DNA from: an uncultured Alphaproteobacteria bacterium
GTDB lineage: Bacteria; Pseudomonadota; Alphaproteobacteria; Rs-D84
DNA length: 64,000 nucleotides
Assembly (NCBI GenBank): GCA_946188105.1
Contig: CAMHTQ010000002.1
Span: 111,973-175,972, forward strand
Reading direction: 5' to 3'
Shown here: in pieces, positions 59,386 through 64,000 of the stretch
Layout of the letters: each line of letters opens with the position of its first letter
Numbering within the stretch: the stretch's first letter is position 1
Notes under the pieces: model-generated
Seen by the model: only the letters and a program-made list of their open reading frames with translations
Databases searched by the model: none
What the model was told of the DNA's origin: nothing
Translations under genes and position numbers: made by a program

Positions 59386-61902
59386 TTATTCCATAGTTAT
59401 CGGTGGAAAACAATCGCCACCACCCGCAGGACAGCAGGCAAATGGATATTCTGAATCAGCACCCATCTCTTCATATGTTTCACCAGGACAGCAACCATTT
59501 GCATCAGGTGCAGAACCATCATCACATGTCAAAGCCCCAGCAGAATCATCCGCTTCCCAAACAGGTTTCTCAGGTTTAGCAAATGGATTCTTGATAGTTT
59601 CGCCATCATCTTCGTATTCCAATCCCAAAATCTCGGTATTATATGCCTTGGTTTGATCTTCTGTTCTTTCTTCAGCAGTACCATAAGATTTCTGGAATGT
59701 TTGTTGTTGATTTTGATAAACAACATCCTGTTTTACTTGGTTCTTGGCCTGATAATTTTGTGATTCACAGAATGCTAATACAGTTCTGTAATCATAGCCA
59801 GCCGCCGCAATATTAGCCGCCTCGCCTTGTTTAACACGCATAACACCCTTGGAATCAACCTCGCAGAATCCAGATAAATCAAACGAACGTACCTGACCAG
59901 TCCAAGAAGAATCATTTGGATCGATGCTAATTTTATTCTTTAAACTTGACCATTCACGTCTGTTGTTTTTACTATACTCAGCAAACGCACATTTTTTACC
60001 TTCGTTTTCTTCCTTGCCACATGTTGCAATTAAATCCACAGGTGAATACACAGTAATACGTGTTCCAGCCGCAATAGAAAATGGCGGAACAGTATTATCC
60101 AACGCATCAACCATCAACTTTTGTGCAACTTTATTCCATGCGGTTATAACTTCGTTCTTGGCTAATTCCGAAGAACGTACCGTTCCAGATTGAACAACTG
60201 TATTATTATCCAAATCAATTTGGTTAACAAATGTATCTGCGATTGGTGCAATCATATTTACAGCCGCAGGTACGATTGCCGTCAATAATGGCATAACCAT
60301 TTGTTCGATATAATCTGTGCTTCCGTATCCTGGAACACCAACACGACCTTGGGAATCAGCAGAATATGGATCTTGATCTTCATCTTCAAAATTAAATTCT
60401 ACACCGTCTGGACGAATAAATTGATACCATTTAATATCCATACGACCAACAGATTTATATGGTCCAGGCAATTTGCCATTTAAATAACCCAATAATAATG
60501 TTCCTGTTGGCAAAATTACTGTGCGACCATTGTCGGAATAAACGTTTCTATCAACGGTTGCACGTACAGGAATACCACTACTTTTACTGCAATCGTTATC
60601 TGGGCAATATACTGATGGATCGGCACGAACCTCGGACACGATTGTTGCAGGAATTGGTTTAAATTGACGCAATATAAATGTTCTGTCAAATGGTCTGGAT
60701 GAATATACTGACTCGGCCTCTTTTGCAGATCCTTTTAATGTTGCCTCTTTATCAACACCACTGGGAATTAAATTAATTCCAGCACCCGTACTATCAAAAG
60801 TATTTTTATAATTGCCCAAACCACCGATTTTATCATCTGACCCAGATGAACGTTCTACAACAGCACCAGGTTTAGATTTTAATTTAGGTACAGAAGTTAT
60901 ATTACCAGTAAATCCGATATGTTCTGCATCTGTTCCAATTTTTTTACCACTGCCATCAATACTGGTAATTACACCTGTATCAGGGTTATAAACACCCGTT
61001 GGTTTGTTACAATCTTTATCAGAAAATGGATGGAATTCATAACGTCCATCTTTTGGTTTTATCCAACCAATTTGTGTTCCTGTTGTGCTGTATCCAGGCA
61101 TCGCAAAATCAGAACATTTTTCAGGTGCGCGTTGACGAGGTTTTTCAACAGGTTTTTGTGCAGGTTGAAATACATTTTCTGCACCAATAATTCCACCATT
61201 TTTAGTTGGAACTTCTGGCTTTGTATCTTCTTCCTCTTCATCCTCTATTGGTGTATCATCGTTATCTAAATCAACATCAGGGGCATCATCAACCTCTGGC
61301 TTTGGTTCCTCAATAGGTTTAGACTTAGGTGTTTCCTGTGGTTTTTGGACGGGGTTTTGATTGTCTGTTTTTTCAACAGCTTTCTTTGGCTCTGGCAAAG
61401 CATTTGTTGAACTCACAGGAATAACGATTTGTGTGCTTTGTTGGAAAATTTCATGCGAATCGTTTTTATCATGCCATTGTATTTTCAATGTAACATCCCC
61501 AGATACCTTGGCATTCCCAGGTGTAAAAGAAACATCAACACGACATGGAATTTGTGTGTTAACCCTGTAACCTTTTTTACATGATTTAAATGAAAATCCT
61601 GGAACAGAATCCTGAACCTCGACAGAATCAATCACCGCATCGTATGTCGCAGTAATTTTAAATGTTTGATCTGCTTTATCACCAACTTTCACATTAGACA
61701 AACTGATGTTATTTGGTGTAATCAACAATTTCACATCACGATTATTGCGTAATCCTGGGGTTGTGGAATGTTTTGGTTTATTAACCAATAAAAATAATAA
61801 AATCAGTACAACAACAAATGCGGCCACCAACAGCATCCAACGAAATGCCACTGGTGTTGCATGAAATGTTTCTTTTATCTTATTCTTTATGTTATTTGCC
61901 AT
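59386..61902 (-). CDS. virB10: VirB10/TrbI-family T4SS protein, expanded (838 aa)
   Basis: N-terminal cytoplasmic tail plus TM (WMLLVAAFVVVLILLFLLV). A beta-rich module. A Pro/Glu/Lys-rich linker (KPQETPKSKPIEEPKPE...). A TrbI C-terminal barrel with hallmark segments RTVILPTGTLLLGYLNG, GRMDIKWYQFIRPDGVEF, and GRVGVPGY...DYIEQMVMPLLTAIV...PPFSIAAGTRITVYSPVDL. Then an extra ~200-aa tail ending in a Cys-rich segment (CDDGSAPDANGCCPGE...FACCPAGGGDCFPP). Confidence 0.75.
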   Translation of the reverse strand: MANNIKNKIKETFHATPVAFRWMLLVAAFVVVLILLFLLVNKPKHSTTPGLRNNRDVKLLITPNNISLSNVKVGDKADQTFKITATYDAVIDSVEVQDSVPGFSFKSCKKGYRVNTQIPCRVDVSFTPGNAKVSGDVTLKIQWHDKNDSHEIFQQSTQIVIPVSSTNALPEPKKAVEKTDNQNPVQKPQETPKSKPIEEPKPEVDDAPDVDLDNDDTPIEDEEEEDTKPEVPTKNGGIIGAENVFQPAQKPVEKPRQRAPEKCSDFAMPGYSTTGTQIGWIKPKDGRYEFHPFSDKDCNKPTGVYNPDTGVITSIDGSGKKIGTDAEHIGFTGNITSVPKLKSKPGAVVERSSGSDDKIGGLGNYKNTFDSTGAGINLIPSGVDKEATLKGSAKEAESVYSSRPFDRTFILRQFKPIPATIVSEVRADPSVYCPDNDCSKSSGIPVRATVDRNVYSDNGRTVILPTGTLLLGYLNGKLPGPYKSVGRMDIKWYQFIRPDGVEFNFEDEDQDPYSADSQGRVGVPGYGSTDYIEQMVMPLLTAIVPAAVNMIAPIADTFVNQIDLDNNTVVQSGTVRSSELAKNEVITAWNKVAQKLMVDALDNTVPPFSIAAGTRITVYSPVDLIATCGKEENEGKKCAFAEYSKNNRREWSSLKNKISIDPNDSSWTGQVRSFDLSGFCEVDSKGVMRVKQGEAANIAAAGYDYRTVLAFCESQNYQAKNQVKQDVVYQNQQQTFQKSYGTAEERTEDQTKAYNTEILGLEYEDDGETIKNPFAKPEKPVWEADDSAGALTCDDGSAPDANGCCPGETYEEMGADSEYPFACCPAGGGDCFPPITME

Positions 61903-61925
61903 AATACATACCCATATTTACCAAA

Positions 61926-63434: not shown

Positions 63435-63454
63435 CTTTCCTTCCTTTTATTTTA

Positions 63455-64000
63455 TTATTTCAGCCAATTCAAAGGGTCGTCGTTTATAACTTTACCTTCT
63501 TTGTTTATAACATTGTAACCGCTAACCCGAATGCCCAATGGATTTTCCATGCGTTCAGCCCATTTTACAGCATTCTGTGCGGTTGATTCCAACTCTATAC
63601 TCAATGTATAGGGTCGTAAAATCTCTTGGGTTTCAAAACTACCATCATTGCACTTGTACATAAAAGTAACGATATAAGTGTTTGTTTCCCCAGTTTTTGG
63701 AACAACCGACTTGGATGGCGGAAATTCAACAGTACAATTTATGTTAAAAGACTCGTCCAAATCCCGATCCCGAGTAATGATATTTACCATGTCGGTCATA
63801 GCGAATTTACCAAAAACCTCGTCTGTGGAACGTGTTTTGATAACACCATCGGGGCTATCCGCCCACAAAGCCCGCATAATAGACAGATTTGGGACAATTT
63901 CGTTGCGTTCACGCACATATTCACGAATAAATTGTTGTTTATAGTCCTCTAAACTGTCGTCAGGAATTTCGGTTAATGTCAATTCCCTGTCCTCTAGTGT
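63455..64000 (-). CDS. virB8: VirB8-family T4SS protein (C-terminal ~180 aa; the N-terminus lies beyond the window edge)
   Basis: NTF2-like VirB8 periplasmic domain with a conserved NPLG-x-x-V-x-x-Y motif near the C-terminus (ENPLGIRVSGYNVINKEG). It is tightly coupled to virB9 by a 20-nt gap. The Met at 63982 is probably internal. Confidence 0.65.
   Translation of the reverse strand, partial: TLEDRELTLTEIPDDSLEDYKQQFIREYVRERNEIVPNLSIMRALWADSPDGVIKTRSTDEVFGKFAMTDMVNIITRDRDLDESFNINCTVEFPPSKSVVPKTGETNTYIVTFMYKCNDGSFETQEILRPYTLSIELESTAQNAVKWAERMENPLGIRVSGYNVINKEGKVINDDPLNWLK

What the first reader, a model, noticed from the sequence alone, without database searches (positions are those of the whole stretch)
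59386..64000. virB8-virB9-virB10 operon with an atypical 838-aa VirB10 and a SPOR-tailed VirB9; virB11 and virD4 are absent downstream
All three core signatures are visible: the VirB8 NPLG motif, the VirB9 N-domain, and the VirB10/TrbI barrel. However, VirB10 is roughly twice the usual length. It has an extra beta-rich N-module after the TM helix and a C-terminal extension of about 200 aa that ends in a Cys-dense segment (CCPGE...ACCPAGGGDC). Canonical VirB10 has neither. VirB9 carries what looks like a peptidoglycan-binding SPOR domain at its C-terminus. That would tether the outer-membrane core complex to septal or denuded glycan, which is an unusual adaptation. The operon then ends at a terminator, after which come two small unknown ORFs (58808..59155 and 58454..58789, the second possibly with an NlpC/P60-LRAT-like fold). 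In rvh-type systems virB11-virD4 normally follow virB10 at this position. The N-terminus of VirB8 and anything upstream fall outside the window.
Basis: partly seen in the sequence, partly recalled or inferred. Interest (0 to 1): 0.75.

Follow-up and report, generated by a model that had tools for sequence, protein, structure and literature searches.

The report
Orphan type IV secretion core operon
An uncultured, small-genome gut bacterium carries three genes for the envelope-spanning core of a type IV secretion machine, with unusual added domains and with none of the motor genes nearby. It is a real but divergent variant of a known system.

Summary

VirB10's length is not a frameshift: all 120 listed homologs are 579-855 aa, nearly all full length. 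Its extra parts are an ASH/PapD-like β-sandwich, a small Cys module, and a C-terminal extension with 10 invariant cysteines.

The host is an alphaproteobacterium of order Rs-D84, near Ca. Enterousia. In 13 species the trio sits in the same place beside nusG-rplKAJL-rpoB, so it is vertically inherited.

No VirB4, VirB11, VirD4, VirB6 or VirB2/3 was found in the window or within 10 kb of the trio in relatives. One distant relative has VirB11. Whole genomes could not be scanned.

Most likely this is the core of a split, divergent T4SS. An ATPase-less, repurposed core is not excluded. The NlpC/P60 idea for the small ORF found no support.

The parts
63455..64000 (-). virB8-like gene. The C-terminal 181 codons are visible. 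About 45-50 N-terminal codons, including the membrane anchor, lie beyond the window edge.
   Evidence: Translation with the NPLG motif. Pfam VirB8 16.4 bits, below GA 23.2, in this cut copy. Full-length orthologs of 223-232 aa have an N-terminal TM helix and score 29.2 and 25.3 bits.
61926..63434 (-). virB9 gene, 502 aa. Layout: signal peptide, N-domain (aa 26-140), C-domain (aa 179-295), conserved helix (296-324), variable Gly/Met/Tyr-rich linker, SPOR tail.
   Evidence: Pfam CagX 81.7 bits. TIGR02781 52.5 bits. A profile hit to the TrwF N-domain in PDB, E 9.5e-4. 36% identity over aa 26-290 to the VirB9 of an Erythrobacter plasmid T4SS, E 1e-50. The C-domain has 100 of 117 columns invariant in 52 orthologs.
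61929..62228 (-). SPOR-fold domain at the C-terminus of VirB9 (aa 403-502), with two invariant cysteines (C485, C496).
59386..61902 (-). virB10 gene, 838 aa.
61777..61842 (-). VirB10 inner-membrane anchor (aa 21-42).
   Evidence: Hydrophobic helix, conserved in alignment A1. Helix 18-40 in the AF2 model.
61399..61740 (-). VirB10 extra N-module (aa 55-168). An ASH/PapD/MSP-like beta-sandwich with two invariant cysteines (C108, C120).
61129..61395 (-). VirB10 Pro/Glu-rich disordered linker (aa 170-258).
   Evidence: Alignment A1 is variable in length and sequence here. pLDDT is below 50. A proline-rich region is a usual VirB10 feature (general knowledge).
60913..61125 (-). VirB10 small conserved beta-rich module (aa 260-330) with invariant C263 and C298.
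   Evidence: 21 of 71 columns invariant, 73% mean identity. pLDDT about 83. No known fold was assigned.
60028..60705 (-). VirB10 TrbI beta-barrel with a two-helix antenna (helices aa 527-560 and 578-603).
59389..60027 (-). VirB10 C-terminal extension (aa 626-838) with 10 invariant cysteines. Its last ~42 aa (59401..59526) form a C-x9-CC-x17-CC-x6-C module.
   Evidence: Invariant C628, 638, 680, 712, 793, 804, 805, 823, 824, 831. pLDDT 60-85, helices 695-758. No fold match. The terminal module recurs as 2-3 tandem copies in small secreted proteins P0355 and P0360.
59336..59366 (-). Intrinsic terminator 20 nt after the virB10 stop codon.
   Evidence: 14-bp stem followed by a U-run. dG -25.5 kcal/mol, z -6.5 against shuffles.
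58808..59155 (-). Conserved 115-aa protein of unknown function. No signal peptide. Usually follows virB10 in this clade.
   Evidence: 60-77% identical in 11 of 13 related loci. 881 homologous clusters; all but two of the 120 listed are 109-131 aa, all unnamed or 'hypothetical' and clade-restricted. No Pfam, NCBIfam, PHROG or PDB hit.
58454..58789 (-). Conserved 111-aa protein of unknown function with invariant C19, H24, Q39 and C83, followed by a terminator-like hairpin at 58434..58464.
   Evidence: 36-63% identical in 9 loci. No family or PDB hit. Hairpin.

Best explanation
The three genes encode the envelope-spanning core of a divergent, chromosomally fixed VirB/D4-like (P-type) type IV secretion system. 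The host is an uncultured, genome-reduced gut alphaproteobacterium of order Rs-D84, near Candidatus Enterousia.

Shown by sequence and fold:
- VirB8 is a bitopic inner-membrane protein.
- VirB9 is a secreted two-domain ring subunit whose flexible tail ends in a SPOR domain.
- VirB10 is anchored in the inner membrane. It crosses the periplasm through a Pro-rich linker and ends in the TrbI barrel with the two-helix antenna. In solved systems that antenna forms the outer-membrane pore.

Inferred:
- VirB9 and VirB10 form the usual multimeric outer-membrane core complex.
- The SPOR tail pins that complex to peptidoglycan.
- The ASH-like sandwich and the disulfide-rich C-terminal extension of VirB10 are periplasmic or surface-exposed interaction modules.
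- The remaining parts (at least a VirB4 ATPase and an inner-membrane channel) are encoded elsewhere in the genome, as in the scattered rvh systems of Rickettsiales.

What the system transports is unknown.
For: Family and fold:
- Pfam CagX 81.7 bits and TrbI 52.2 bits are above threshold.
- VirB8 is above threshold in full-length orthologs.
- Antenna helices are present in the model.

Real, selected genes:
- 885 and 1112 homologous clusters, nearly all full length among those listed.
- VirB10 barrel 83% and VirB9 C-domain 96% mean identity across orthologs.

Vertical inheritance:
- The same order nusG-secE-tRNA-Trp / virB8-virB9-virB10 is found in 13 species-level genomes.
- GC content is like the rest of the window.

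Link to bona fide T4SSs:
- Relative L019 has VirB8, a VirB7-like lipoprotein, VirB8, VirB9(SPOR), VirB10 and VirB11 in that order.
- The closest plasmid system (Erythrobacter aureus, VirB9 36% identical, E 1e-50) has the full set VirB2-B11 plus VirD4.

The organism makes peptidoglycan and uses SPOR elsewhere, in a DacA-like PBP with SPOR at 24.5 bits. Relatives carry MurG, FtsW, MraY and PBP1a.
Against: No VirB4, VirB11, VirD4, VirB6, VirB2, VirB3 or VirB5 was detected. The places searched were the 64-kb window (Pfam on all ORFs of at least 150 aa; Walker A scan) and 871 kb of window plus related loci (tblastn). The single exception is VirB11 in L019/L020.

In five other genomic contexts the trio, or the VirB9-VirB10 pair, also stands alone.

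No VirB7-like lipoprotein gene precedes virB8 in this clade.

Scores are far below the NCBIfam equivalog cut-offs. Profiles of the family find almost nothing in the PDB by sequence.

A paper on the metabolism of these genomes does not mention any secretion system (PMC12306168).
Confidence: 0.6

Rival explanations
1. An ATPase-less, repurposed core complex. The lineage has lost the T4SS motors and inner-membrane channel. It keeps only VirB8-VirB9-VirB10 as a peptidoglycan-anchored, envelope-spanning structure. That structure might serve as a passive conduit, an envelope staple or an attachment organelle. Its Cys-rich VirB10 end would interact with secreted proteins that carry the same module.
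For: The trio stands alone in every context examined in this clade and in four more distant contexts. No ATPase was found in the window. The genomes are under 1 Mb. The VirB9 C-domain is extremely conserved: 100 of 117 columns invariant. The terminal Cys module is shared with separate secreted proteins.
Against: No T4SS or T4SS-derived machine without a VirB4 ATPase is known (general knowledge). Under 10% of the genome was inspected. Split T4SS gene sets are well known in related alphaproteobacteria. A relative keeps VirB11 next to the core.
Confidence: 0.2
2. A ComB-like DNA-uptake T4SS. The core brings DNA across the outer membrane and ComEC, encoded 20 kb away, takes it across the inner membrane. 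This would explain the lack of VirB11 and VirD4, as in Helicobacter pylori ComB.
Against: ComB10 scores lower than VirB10 and far below its cut-off of 300. ComB also needs ComB4 (a VirB4 homolog), ComB2, ComB3 and ComB6, none of which was found. ComEC is near-universal and says little. There is no evidence on the substrate.
Confidence: 0.1
3. A remnant of a conjugative plasmid or integrative element that is decaying in the chromosome.
For: The proteins belong to families best known from conjugation. The nearest plasmid hits are MPF_T systems.
Against: The position beside nusG/rpoB is the same in 13 species. GC content is not deviant. No relaxase, coupling protein, integrase or repeats lie nearby. 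The ORFs are intact and full length, with very strong conservation.
Confidence: 0.03

Closest known systems
Rickettsiales vir homolog (rvh) type IV secretion system
   Same: A chromosomal, vertically inherited VirB/D4-type system of host-associated alphaproteobacteria with small genomes. Its genes are scattered over several loci and include a cluster with virB8-virB9-virB10. Relative L019 shows the rvh-like order VirB8, VirB7-like lipoprotein, VirB8, VirB9, VirB10, VirB11.
   Different: Here the cluster has one VirB8, no VirB7, and no virB11-virD4 after virB10. VirB9 carries a SPOR tail. VirB10 is about 350 aa longer, with an ASH-like domain and a Cys-rich C-terminal extension. The five tandem membrane-protein paralogs in the window, which recall rvhB6a-e, show no detectable VirB6/TrbL homology. 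The rvh layout is taken from general knowledge, not tested here.
VirB/D4 (MPF_T) T4SS of the Erythrobacter aureus YH-07 plasmid NZ_CP031358.1
   Same: This is the closest complete system found. Its VirB9 is 36% identical over both core domains (E 1e-50). That VirB9 is also elongated (432 aa) and ends in 'RLRVGPF...C...C', which resembles the end of the SPOR tail. Its VirB10 barrel is 31% identical.
   Different: It is plasmid-borne and complete, with VirB2, B3, B4, B5-like, B6-like, B8-B11 and VirD4 in one cluster. Its VirB10 is 529 aa, without the ASH module or the Cys-rich extension. Its SPOR-like tail is not recognised by Pfam and reaches only 51% hhalign probability.
pKM101 TraN/TraO/TraF and R388 TrwH/TrwF/TrwE outer-membrane core complexes (solved structures 3jqo, 7o3j)
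   Different: About 15% sequence identity. Those complexes need a VirB7 lipoprotein and have no peptidoglycan-binding domain, no ASH domain and no C-terminal extension.
Helicobacter pylori Cag (CagX/CagY) and ComB (ComB8/9/10) systems
   Different: The extra region of CagY consists of N-terminal repeats, not an ASH domain plus a C-terminal Cys-rich extension. ComB10 is short. Both systems have a VirB4 homolog. The NCBIfam ComB10 score is 42.9 against a cut-off of 300.
Peptidoglycan-anchoring parts of other envelope machines (e.g. Legionella Dot/Icm DotK with an OmpA-like domain; SPOR proteins FtsN, DamX, RlpA)
   Same: The same principle applies: a peptidoglycan-binding domain attached to a trans-envelope complex. 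The fold of the tail matches RlpA and CwlC SPOR domains.
   Different: Here the domain is SPOR and is fused directly to VirB9. A full-text search for papers mentioning both 'VirB9' and 'SPOR domain' returned nothing. Glycan binding was not tested. The statement about DotK is from general knowledge.

Membership tests
VirB10 / TrbI (PF03743) | C-terminal beta-barrel domain recognised by the family model | tested here: met
VirB10 / TrbI (PF03743) | N-terminal inner-membrane anchor, a proline-rich linker, and a two-helix antenna inside the barrel | tested here: met
   TM helix aa 21-42, Pro/Glu linker 170-258, helices 527-560 and 578-603. Pore formation itself is not testable here.
VirB10 equivalog (NCBIfam NF038091) / ComB10 equivalog (NF038092) | Score above the curated equivalog cut-off | tested here: not met
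   54.3 bits against 220, and 42.9 bits against 300. It is a divergent family member, not an equivalog.
VirB9 / CagX (PF03524) | Signal peptide plus the two VirB9 domains recognised by the family model | tested here: met
   CagX 81.7 bits against 34.2, aa 48-288. All 52 of 52 orthologs hit. The TIGR02781 equivalog cut-off is not reached, 52.5 against 217.7.
VirB8 (PF04335) | Bitopic protein with an NTF2-like periplasmic domain recognised by the family model, and the NPxG motif | tested here: inconclusive
   The window copy is truncated and scores 16.4 bits against GA 23.2. NPLG is present. Orthologs are full length with a TM helix and score 29.2 and 25.3 bits. So the feature is met for the family but sub-threshold for the visible fragment.
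SPOR domain (PF05036) | Family model score above the gathering threshold | tested here: inconclusive
   Window copy 19.1 bits against 21. L002 22.2, L019 25.3 and L021 26.0 are above threshold. 52/52 orthologs hit at E<=0.01. A profile search of PDB sequences found no SPOR entry.
SPOR domain (PF05036) | beta-alpha-beta-beta-alpha-beta RNP-like fold matching solved SPOR domains | tested here: met
SPOR domain (PF05036) | Binding to denuded (stem-peptide-free) glycan strands | not testable with these tools
   Needs a binding assay with amidase-treated sacculi.
Complete type IV secretion system | A VirB4-family ATPase, universal in T4SSs | tested here: inconclusive
   None in the window. None in 871 kb of window plus related loci. 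Under 10% of a genome was covered and whole genomes could not be scanned.
Complete type IV secretion system | VirB6/TrbL channel, VirB2/VirB3, VirB7 lipoprotein, VirB11 and VirD4 | tested here: inconclusive
   Not found in the window or next to the trio. VirB7-like lipoproteins are present in relatives L015, L017 and L019, and VirB11 in L019. The rest of the genome was not searchable.
rvh-type T4SS (Rickettsiales) | Cluster of VirB8, VirB7, VirB8, VirB9, VirB10, VirB11, VirD4, with duplicated components | tested here: not met
   The window and 13 orthologous loci have a single VirB8, no VirB7, and nothing after VirB10 except two unrelated small genes. The definition of the layout is from general knowledge.
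Conjugative element | Relaxase, coupling protein, element borders, patchy distribution | tested here: not met
   Fixed position next to nusG/rpoB in 13 species. No such genes within 10 kb. GC content is not deviant.
NlpC/P60 - LRAT (for the 111-aa ORF) | Recognisable Cys/His papain-like core | tested here: not met
   No Pfam, NCBIfam, PHROG or PDB-profile hit. Invariant C19, H24, Q39 and C83 leave an enzyme possible.

The most novel reading that the evidence does not exclude
The Rs-D84/Enterousia lineage may have kept only VirB8-VirB9-VirB10 and lost every T4SS ATPase. The peptidoglycan-pinned core complex would then be a stand-alone envelope organelle. It could be a conduit, or an attachment device for an epibiotic or parasitic lifestyle. 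Its disulfide-rich VirB10 terminus would dock secreted proteins that carry tandem copies of the same Cys module. This would be the first T4SS-derived machine that works without a VirB4 motor.
Probability: 0.15. Interest if true: 0.85.

Novelty: new variant of a known kind. Interest (0 to 1): 0.5.

Why it matters
Bacteria of order Rs-D84 are common in animal and human guts. Their genomes are under 1 Mb and they cannot make amino acids, nucleotides or fatty acids. How they obtain these compounds is unknown (PMC12306168). A strongly conserved, chromosomally fixed secretion core is a candidate for their interface with other cells.

For T4SS biology the locus offers three things:
- A natural VirB9-SPOR fusion, that is, direct peptidoglycan anchoring of the outer-membrane core.
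- A VirB10 with an ASH/PapD-like domain and a Cys-rich C-terminal extension. The end of that extension is shared with separate secreted proteins.
- A clear test case for whether a T4SS core can persist apart from, or without, its ATPases.

The family identity itself is already given by automatic annotation ('TrbI/VirB10 family', 'TrbG/VirB9 family'), so that part is not new.

Tried and rejected
1. Frameshift or fusion as the cause of the long VirB10. Rejected: the homologs listed are nearly all full length.

2. Fetching the window's own contig beyond position 64000. VirB9, VirB10 and P0389 are not on record. P0395 gave only a 4.6-kb contig. Upstream content was therefore inferred from 13 orthologous loci.

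3. The five tandem polytopic membrane-protein paralogs (26725..33357) as VirB6 analogs, in parallel with rvhB6a-e. Not supported.
   - No Pfam hit even at E<=5 and no PDB hit.
   - hhalign probability against three plasmid VirB6 proteins is at most 0.5%, whereas most paralog pairs match each other at 80-99%.
   - Their neighbours in 36 metagenome loci are housekeeping genes.

4. Genes next to the secreted Cys-module proteins P0355 and P0360 as a route to other T4SS parts. They lie beside a MacB/FtsX-type ABC transporter and ftsQ/ftsA, not T4SS genes.

5. Profile searches of PDB sequences.
   - VirB10: nothing.
   - The SPOR tail: only chance hits.
   - orf115 and orf111: nothing.

6. Recent duplication of the SPOR domain from the DacA-like PBP in the same window. 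hhalign probability 1%.

7. PHROG and NCBIfam scans of the small and unknown ORFs: no hits.

8. Literature. There is no paper on secretion systems in Enterousia or Rs-D84, and no paper mentioning VirB9 together with a SPOR domain. The 2023 Enterousia paper is not held.

9. Finding VirB4, VirB11 or VirD4 genome-wide with the capped search tools. Judged not feasible: a generic ATPase query would return only its own close relatives among the 120 hits listed. The last homolog search went to orf115 instead.

10. Foldseek against afdb50 was unavailable.

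
Full report
WHAT IS THERE. The minus strand of 58454..64000 holds five ORFs. A 181-codon reading frame runs off the window edge (63455..64000). It is followed by a 502-aa ORF (61926..63434), an 838-aa ORF (59386..61902), a strong hairpin with a U-run, and two small ORFs of 115 aa (58808..59155) and 111 aa (58454..58789). 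The hairpin lies at 59336..59366 and folds at dG -25.5 kcal/mol, z -6.5 against shuffles. A second hairpin lies at 58434..58464. Beyond it the genes converge from the other strand: a BamB-like protein, a DUF2659/TPR protein, then rpoH, a porin-like protein, lpxD and yidC.

FAMILY ASSIGNMENT. Pfam places the 838-aa protein in TrbI/VirB10 (52.2 bits, cut-off 35) and the 502-aa protein in CagX/VirB9 (81.7 bits, cut-off 34.2). The truncated first ORF scores only 16.4 bits for VirB8 (cut-off 23.2), although it carries the NPLG motif. Its full-length orthologs are 223-232 aa with an N-terminal membrane helix and score 29.2 and 25.3 bits.

All three proteins are divergent. NCBIfam equivalog models score 54 (cut-off 220) for VirB10 and 52.5 (cut-off 217.7) for VirB9. 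Profiles built from the family find nothing (VirB10) or only the TrwF N-domain (VirB9, E 9.5e-4) among PDB sequences. The best plasmid VirB10 barrels are 27-31% identical.

THE LONG VirB10. Its length is not an artefact. The 120 best homologous clusters are 579-855 aa, nearly all 770-855 aa and aligned over the full length. An alignment of 58 of them and the model give a conserved architecture:
- a short cytoplasmic tail and a membrane helix (aa 21-42);
- a confidently predicted beta-sandwich (aa 55-168, pLDDT about 90, invariant C108 and C120);
- a disordered Pro/Glu-rich linker (170-258), which is usual for VirB10;
- a small conserved beta-rich module (260-330, invariant C263 and C298);
- a variable linker;
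- the TrbI barrel with its two antenna helices (400-625; 116 of 226 columns invariant);
- a 213-aa C-terminal extension with ten invariant cysteines.

No known fold was found for the extension. Its last ~42 residues (C-x9-CC-x17-CC-x6-C, ending CFPP) also occur as two or three tandem copies in small secreted proteins. Those proteins, P0355 and P0360, are encoded elsewhere, next to a MacB/FtsX-type ABC transporter.

An exhaustive HMMER search of 1.84 billion representative proteins found only 624 hits at E<=0.001. The full architecture is confined to about 15 representative clusters. More distant relatives of 650-850 aa share aa ~250-630 but not the extension.

The organism has peptidoglycan genes and uses SPOR elsewhere. 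A DacA-like PBP at 46006..47142 ends in a SPOR domain (24.5 bits), but the two domains are not recent copies of each other.

One point is striking. The VirB9 C-domain (aa 179-295) averages 96% identity, with 100 of 117 columns invariant, across orthologs whose VirB10 proteins are only 50-68% identical.

ORGANISM AND CONTEXT. Thirteen species-level genomes carry the same gene order. They are titled Candidatus Enterousia sp., Ca. Enterousia avicola or 'Alphaproteobacteria bacterium', and come from rumen, horse, chicken and human gut. The order is rpoB-rplLJAK-nusG-secE-tRNA-Trp on one strand, then virB8-virB9-virB10 on the other, usually followed by the 115-aa and 111-aa genes. Enterousia belongs to order Rs-D84, whose genomes are mostly below 1 Mb and lack most biosynthetic pathways (PMC12306168). 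The GC content of the locus equals that of its surroundings. The trio is therefore a vertically inherited core feature of the lineage, not a mobile element.

THE REST OF THE MACHINE. I found none of it.
- Every ORF of at least 150 aa in the window was scanned with Pfam.
- Only two ORFs carry a Walker A motif, an ABC transporter and UvrD.
- VirB2, B3, B4, B5, B6, B11 and D4 sequences from three plasmid systems were searched by tblastn against 871 kb of window plus related loci. They hit only the VirB11 of L019/L020.
- No VirB7-like lipoprotein gene lies upstream of virB8 in this clade.

More distant relatives reached through the representative search show the same isolation in other genomic places:
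- L014: Cys-rich secreted proteins, then VirB8, VirB9(SPOR), VirB10.
- L015/L016: a lipoprotein, then VirB8, VirB9, VirB10 and two small secreted proteins, between mutS and thrS.
- L017/L018: a lipoprotein, VirB8-like genes, then VirB8, VirB9(SPOR), VirB10.
- L021: VirB9(SPOR) and VirB10 only.
- L019/L020, the exception: VirB8, a VirB7-like lipoprotein, VirB8, VirB9(SPOR), a 2287-aa VirB10 and VirB11. As far as I recall this is the rvh order of Rickettsiales.

The closest complete system is on an Erythrobacter aureus plasmid. It has VirB2 to B11 plus VirD4. Its 432-aa VirB9 is 36% identical to the window protein (E 1e-50) and ends in a SPOR-like 'RLRVGPF...C...C' stretch, with hhalign probability 51%. 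So the SPOR-tailed VirB9 marks a T4SS sub-lineage that includes bona fide complete or ATPase-bearing systems. Whole genomes of the clade could not be scanned with the tools and caps available. This is the main open point.

THE TWO SMALL ORFs. Both are real and conserved: 60-77% identity for orf115 and 36-63% for orf111. They lie behind the terminator, have no signal peptide, and both are missing downstream of virB10 in L010 and L011. More distant relatives carry unrelated small secreted proteins there instead. The 115-aa protein has 881 homologous clusters. All but two of those listed are 109-131 aa, none has a functional name, and all are confined to the clade. Neither protein hits Pfam, NCBIfam, PHROGs or PDB profiles. 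The NlpC/P60-LRAT idea for the 111-aa protein has no sequence support. Its invariant C19, H24, Q39 and C83 still leave an enzyme possible. I do not count these two genes as demonstrated parts of the system.

HOW IT MOST LIKELY WORKS. By homology with solved systems, VirB9 and VirB10 should form the multimeric outer-membrane core complex, with the VirB10 antenna helices lining the outer-membrane pore. VirB10 would bridge to the inner membrane through its N-terminal helix, and VirB8 would act as the inner-membrane assembly partner. These steps are inferred. The lineage-specific additions suggest three things:
- direct anchoring of the ring to peptidoglycan by the SPOR tail on a ~60-80-residue flexible linker, possibly replacing the missing VirB7;
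- an ASH-like interaction domain close to the inner membrane;
- a disulfide-stabilised C-terminal extension, periplasmic or surface-exposed, whose terminal module may pair with secreted proteins that carry the same module.

I put 0.6 on 'core of a split, otherwise conventional but divergent T4SS'. I put 0.2 on an ATPase-less repurposed core, 0.1 on a ComB-like DNA-uptake role (ComEC lies at 38789..40753), and about 0.03 on a decaying mobile element.

VERDICT. The system is a new variant of a known kind. Automatic annotation already names the VirB9 and VirB10 families. The following are, as far as I could find, undescribed:
- the VirB9-SPOR fusion;
- the ASH-like and Cys-rich additions to VirB10;
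- the fixed chromosomal position;
- the consistent separation from any ATPase gene.

Interest is moderate (0.5). It would rise sharply if whole-genome scans show that no VirB4 exists in these genomes.

Noticed in passing
window 26725..33357: Five distantly paralogous polytopic membrane proteins, 400-499 aa, 6-8 TM helices each, with Lys-rich C-termini. Four are in tandem on the minus strand (26725..31983) and one is divergent (32044..33357). A conserved 170-aa unknown follows at 33424..33936. The array is conserved in 36 metagenome loci. None has any Pfam or PDB hit. Profile comparison shows most pairs are related to each other (80-99%) but not detectably to VirB6 (at most 0.5%).
   Followed up: yes
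window 18549..20768 and 21659..23932: Two large secreted-looking proteins of 739 and 757 aa. Each has an Arg/Thr/Ser-rich N-terminal stretch and 25 or 35 cysteines. There is no family hit. They are weakly related to each other (E 2e-7) and conserved in related loci at 48-68% identity.
   Followed up: partly
proteins P0355, P0360; loci L061-L064: Small secreted proteins of 250-270 aa carry 2-3 tandem copies of the same ~42-aa Cys module that ends VirB10 (…NGCCPGE.YTDMG..GFNCCP..GGDCFPP). They are encoded just downstream of a MacB/FtsX-type ABC transporter near ftsQ/ftsA.
   Followed up: partly
window 62550..62900 (VirB9 aa 179-295): The VirB9 C-domain is almost frozen: 96% mean identity and 100 of 117 columns invariant in 52 orthologs. 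It remains nearly unchanged in L014, whose VirB10 is only 37% identical. This is much more conserved than the rest of the operon, and the reason is unknown.
   Followed up: partly
window 46006..47142: A D-Ala-D-Ala carboxypeptidase (Peptidase_S11) with a C-terminal SPOR domain (24.5 bits). It is a second SPOR protein in the window and is not a recent copy of the VirB9 tail.
   Followed up: yes
window 8099..13127: A low-GC stretch (0.32-0.34) just after the rRNA operon holds at least six ORFs of 180-345 aa with no Pfam or PHROG hit. Two neighbouring ORFs (11916..12569 and 12585..13127) look like paralogs with a C-terminal membrane helix.
   Followed up: partly
L019 641..17881: A distant relative has an rvh-like cluster. 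It comprises seven secreted coiled-coil proteins, VirB8, a VirB7-like lipoprotein, VirB8, a 576-aa VirB9 with SPOR, a 2287-aa VirB10 with Bflower and RHS-like regions, and VirB11.
   Followed up: partly
L014 4305..7519: Directly upstream of virB8 in another relative lie two secreted Lys/Glu- and Cys-rich proteins of 811 and 261 aa, with repeated '..CC..' and 'GW..C' motifs.
   Followed up: no
window 55035..56054 and 38789..40753: A 339-aa protein with a signal peptide and a beta-barrel-like sequence that ends in F, with no family hit (porin-like). Also a ComEC competence channel gene (Competence domain, 180 bits).
   Followed up: no
window 3120..8055: A complete rRNA operon (16S, a tRNA, 23S, 5S).
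   Followed up: no
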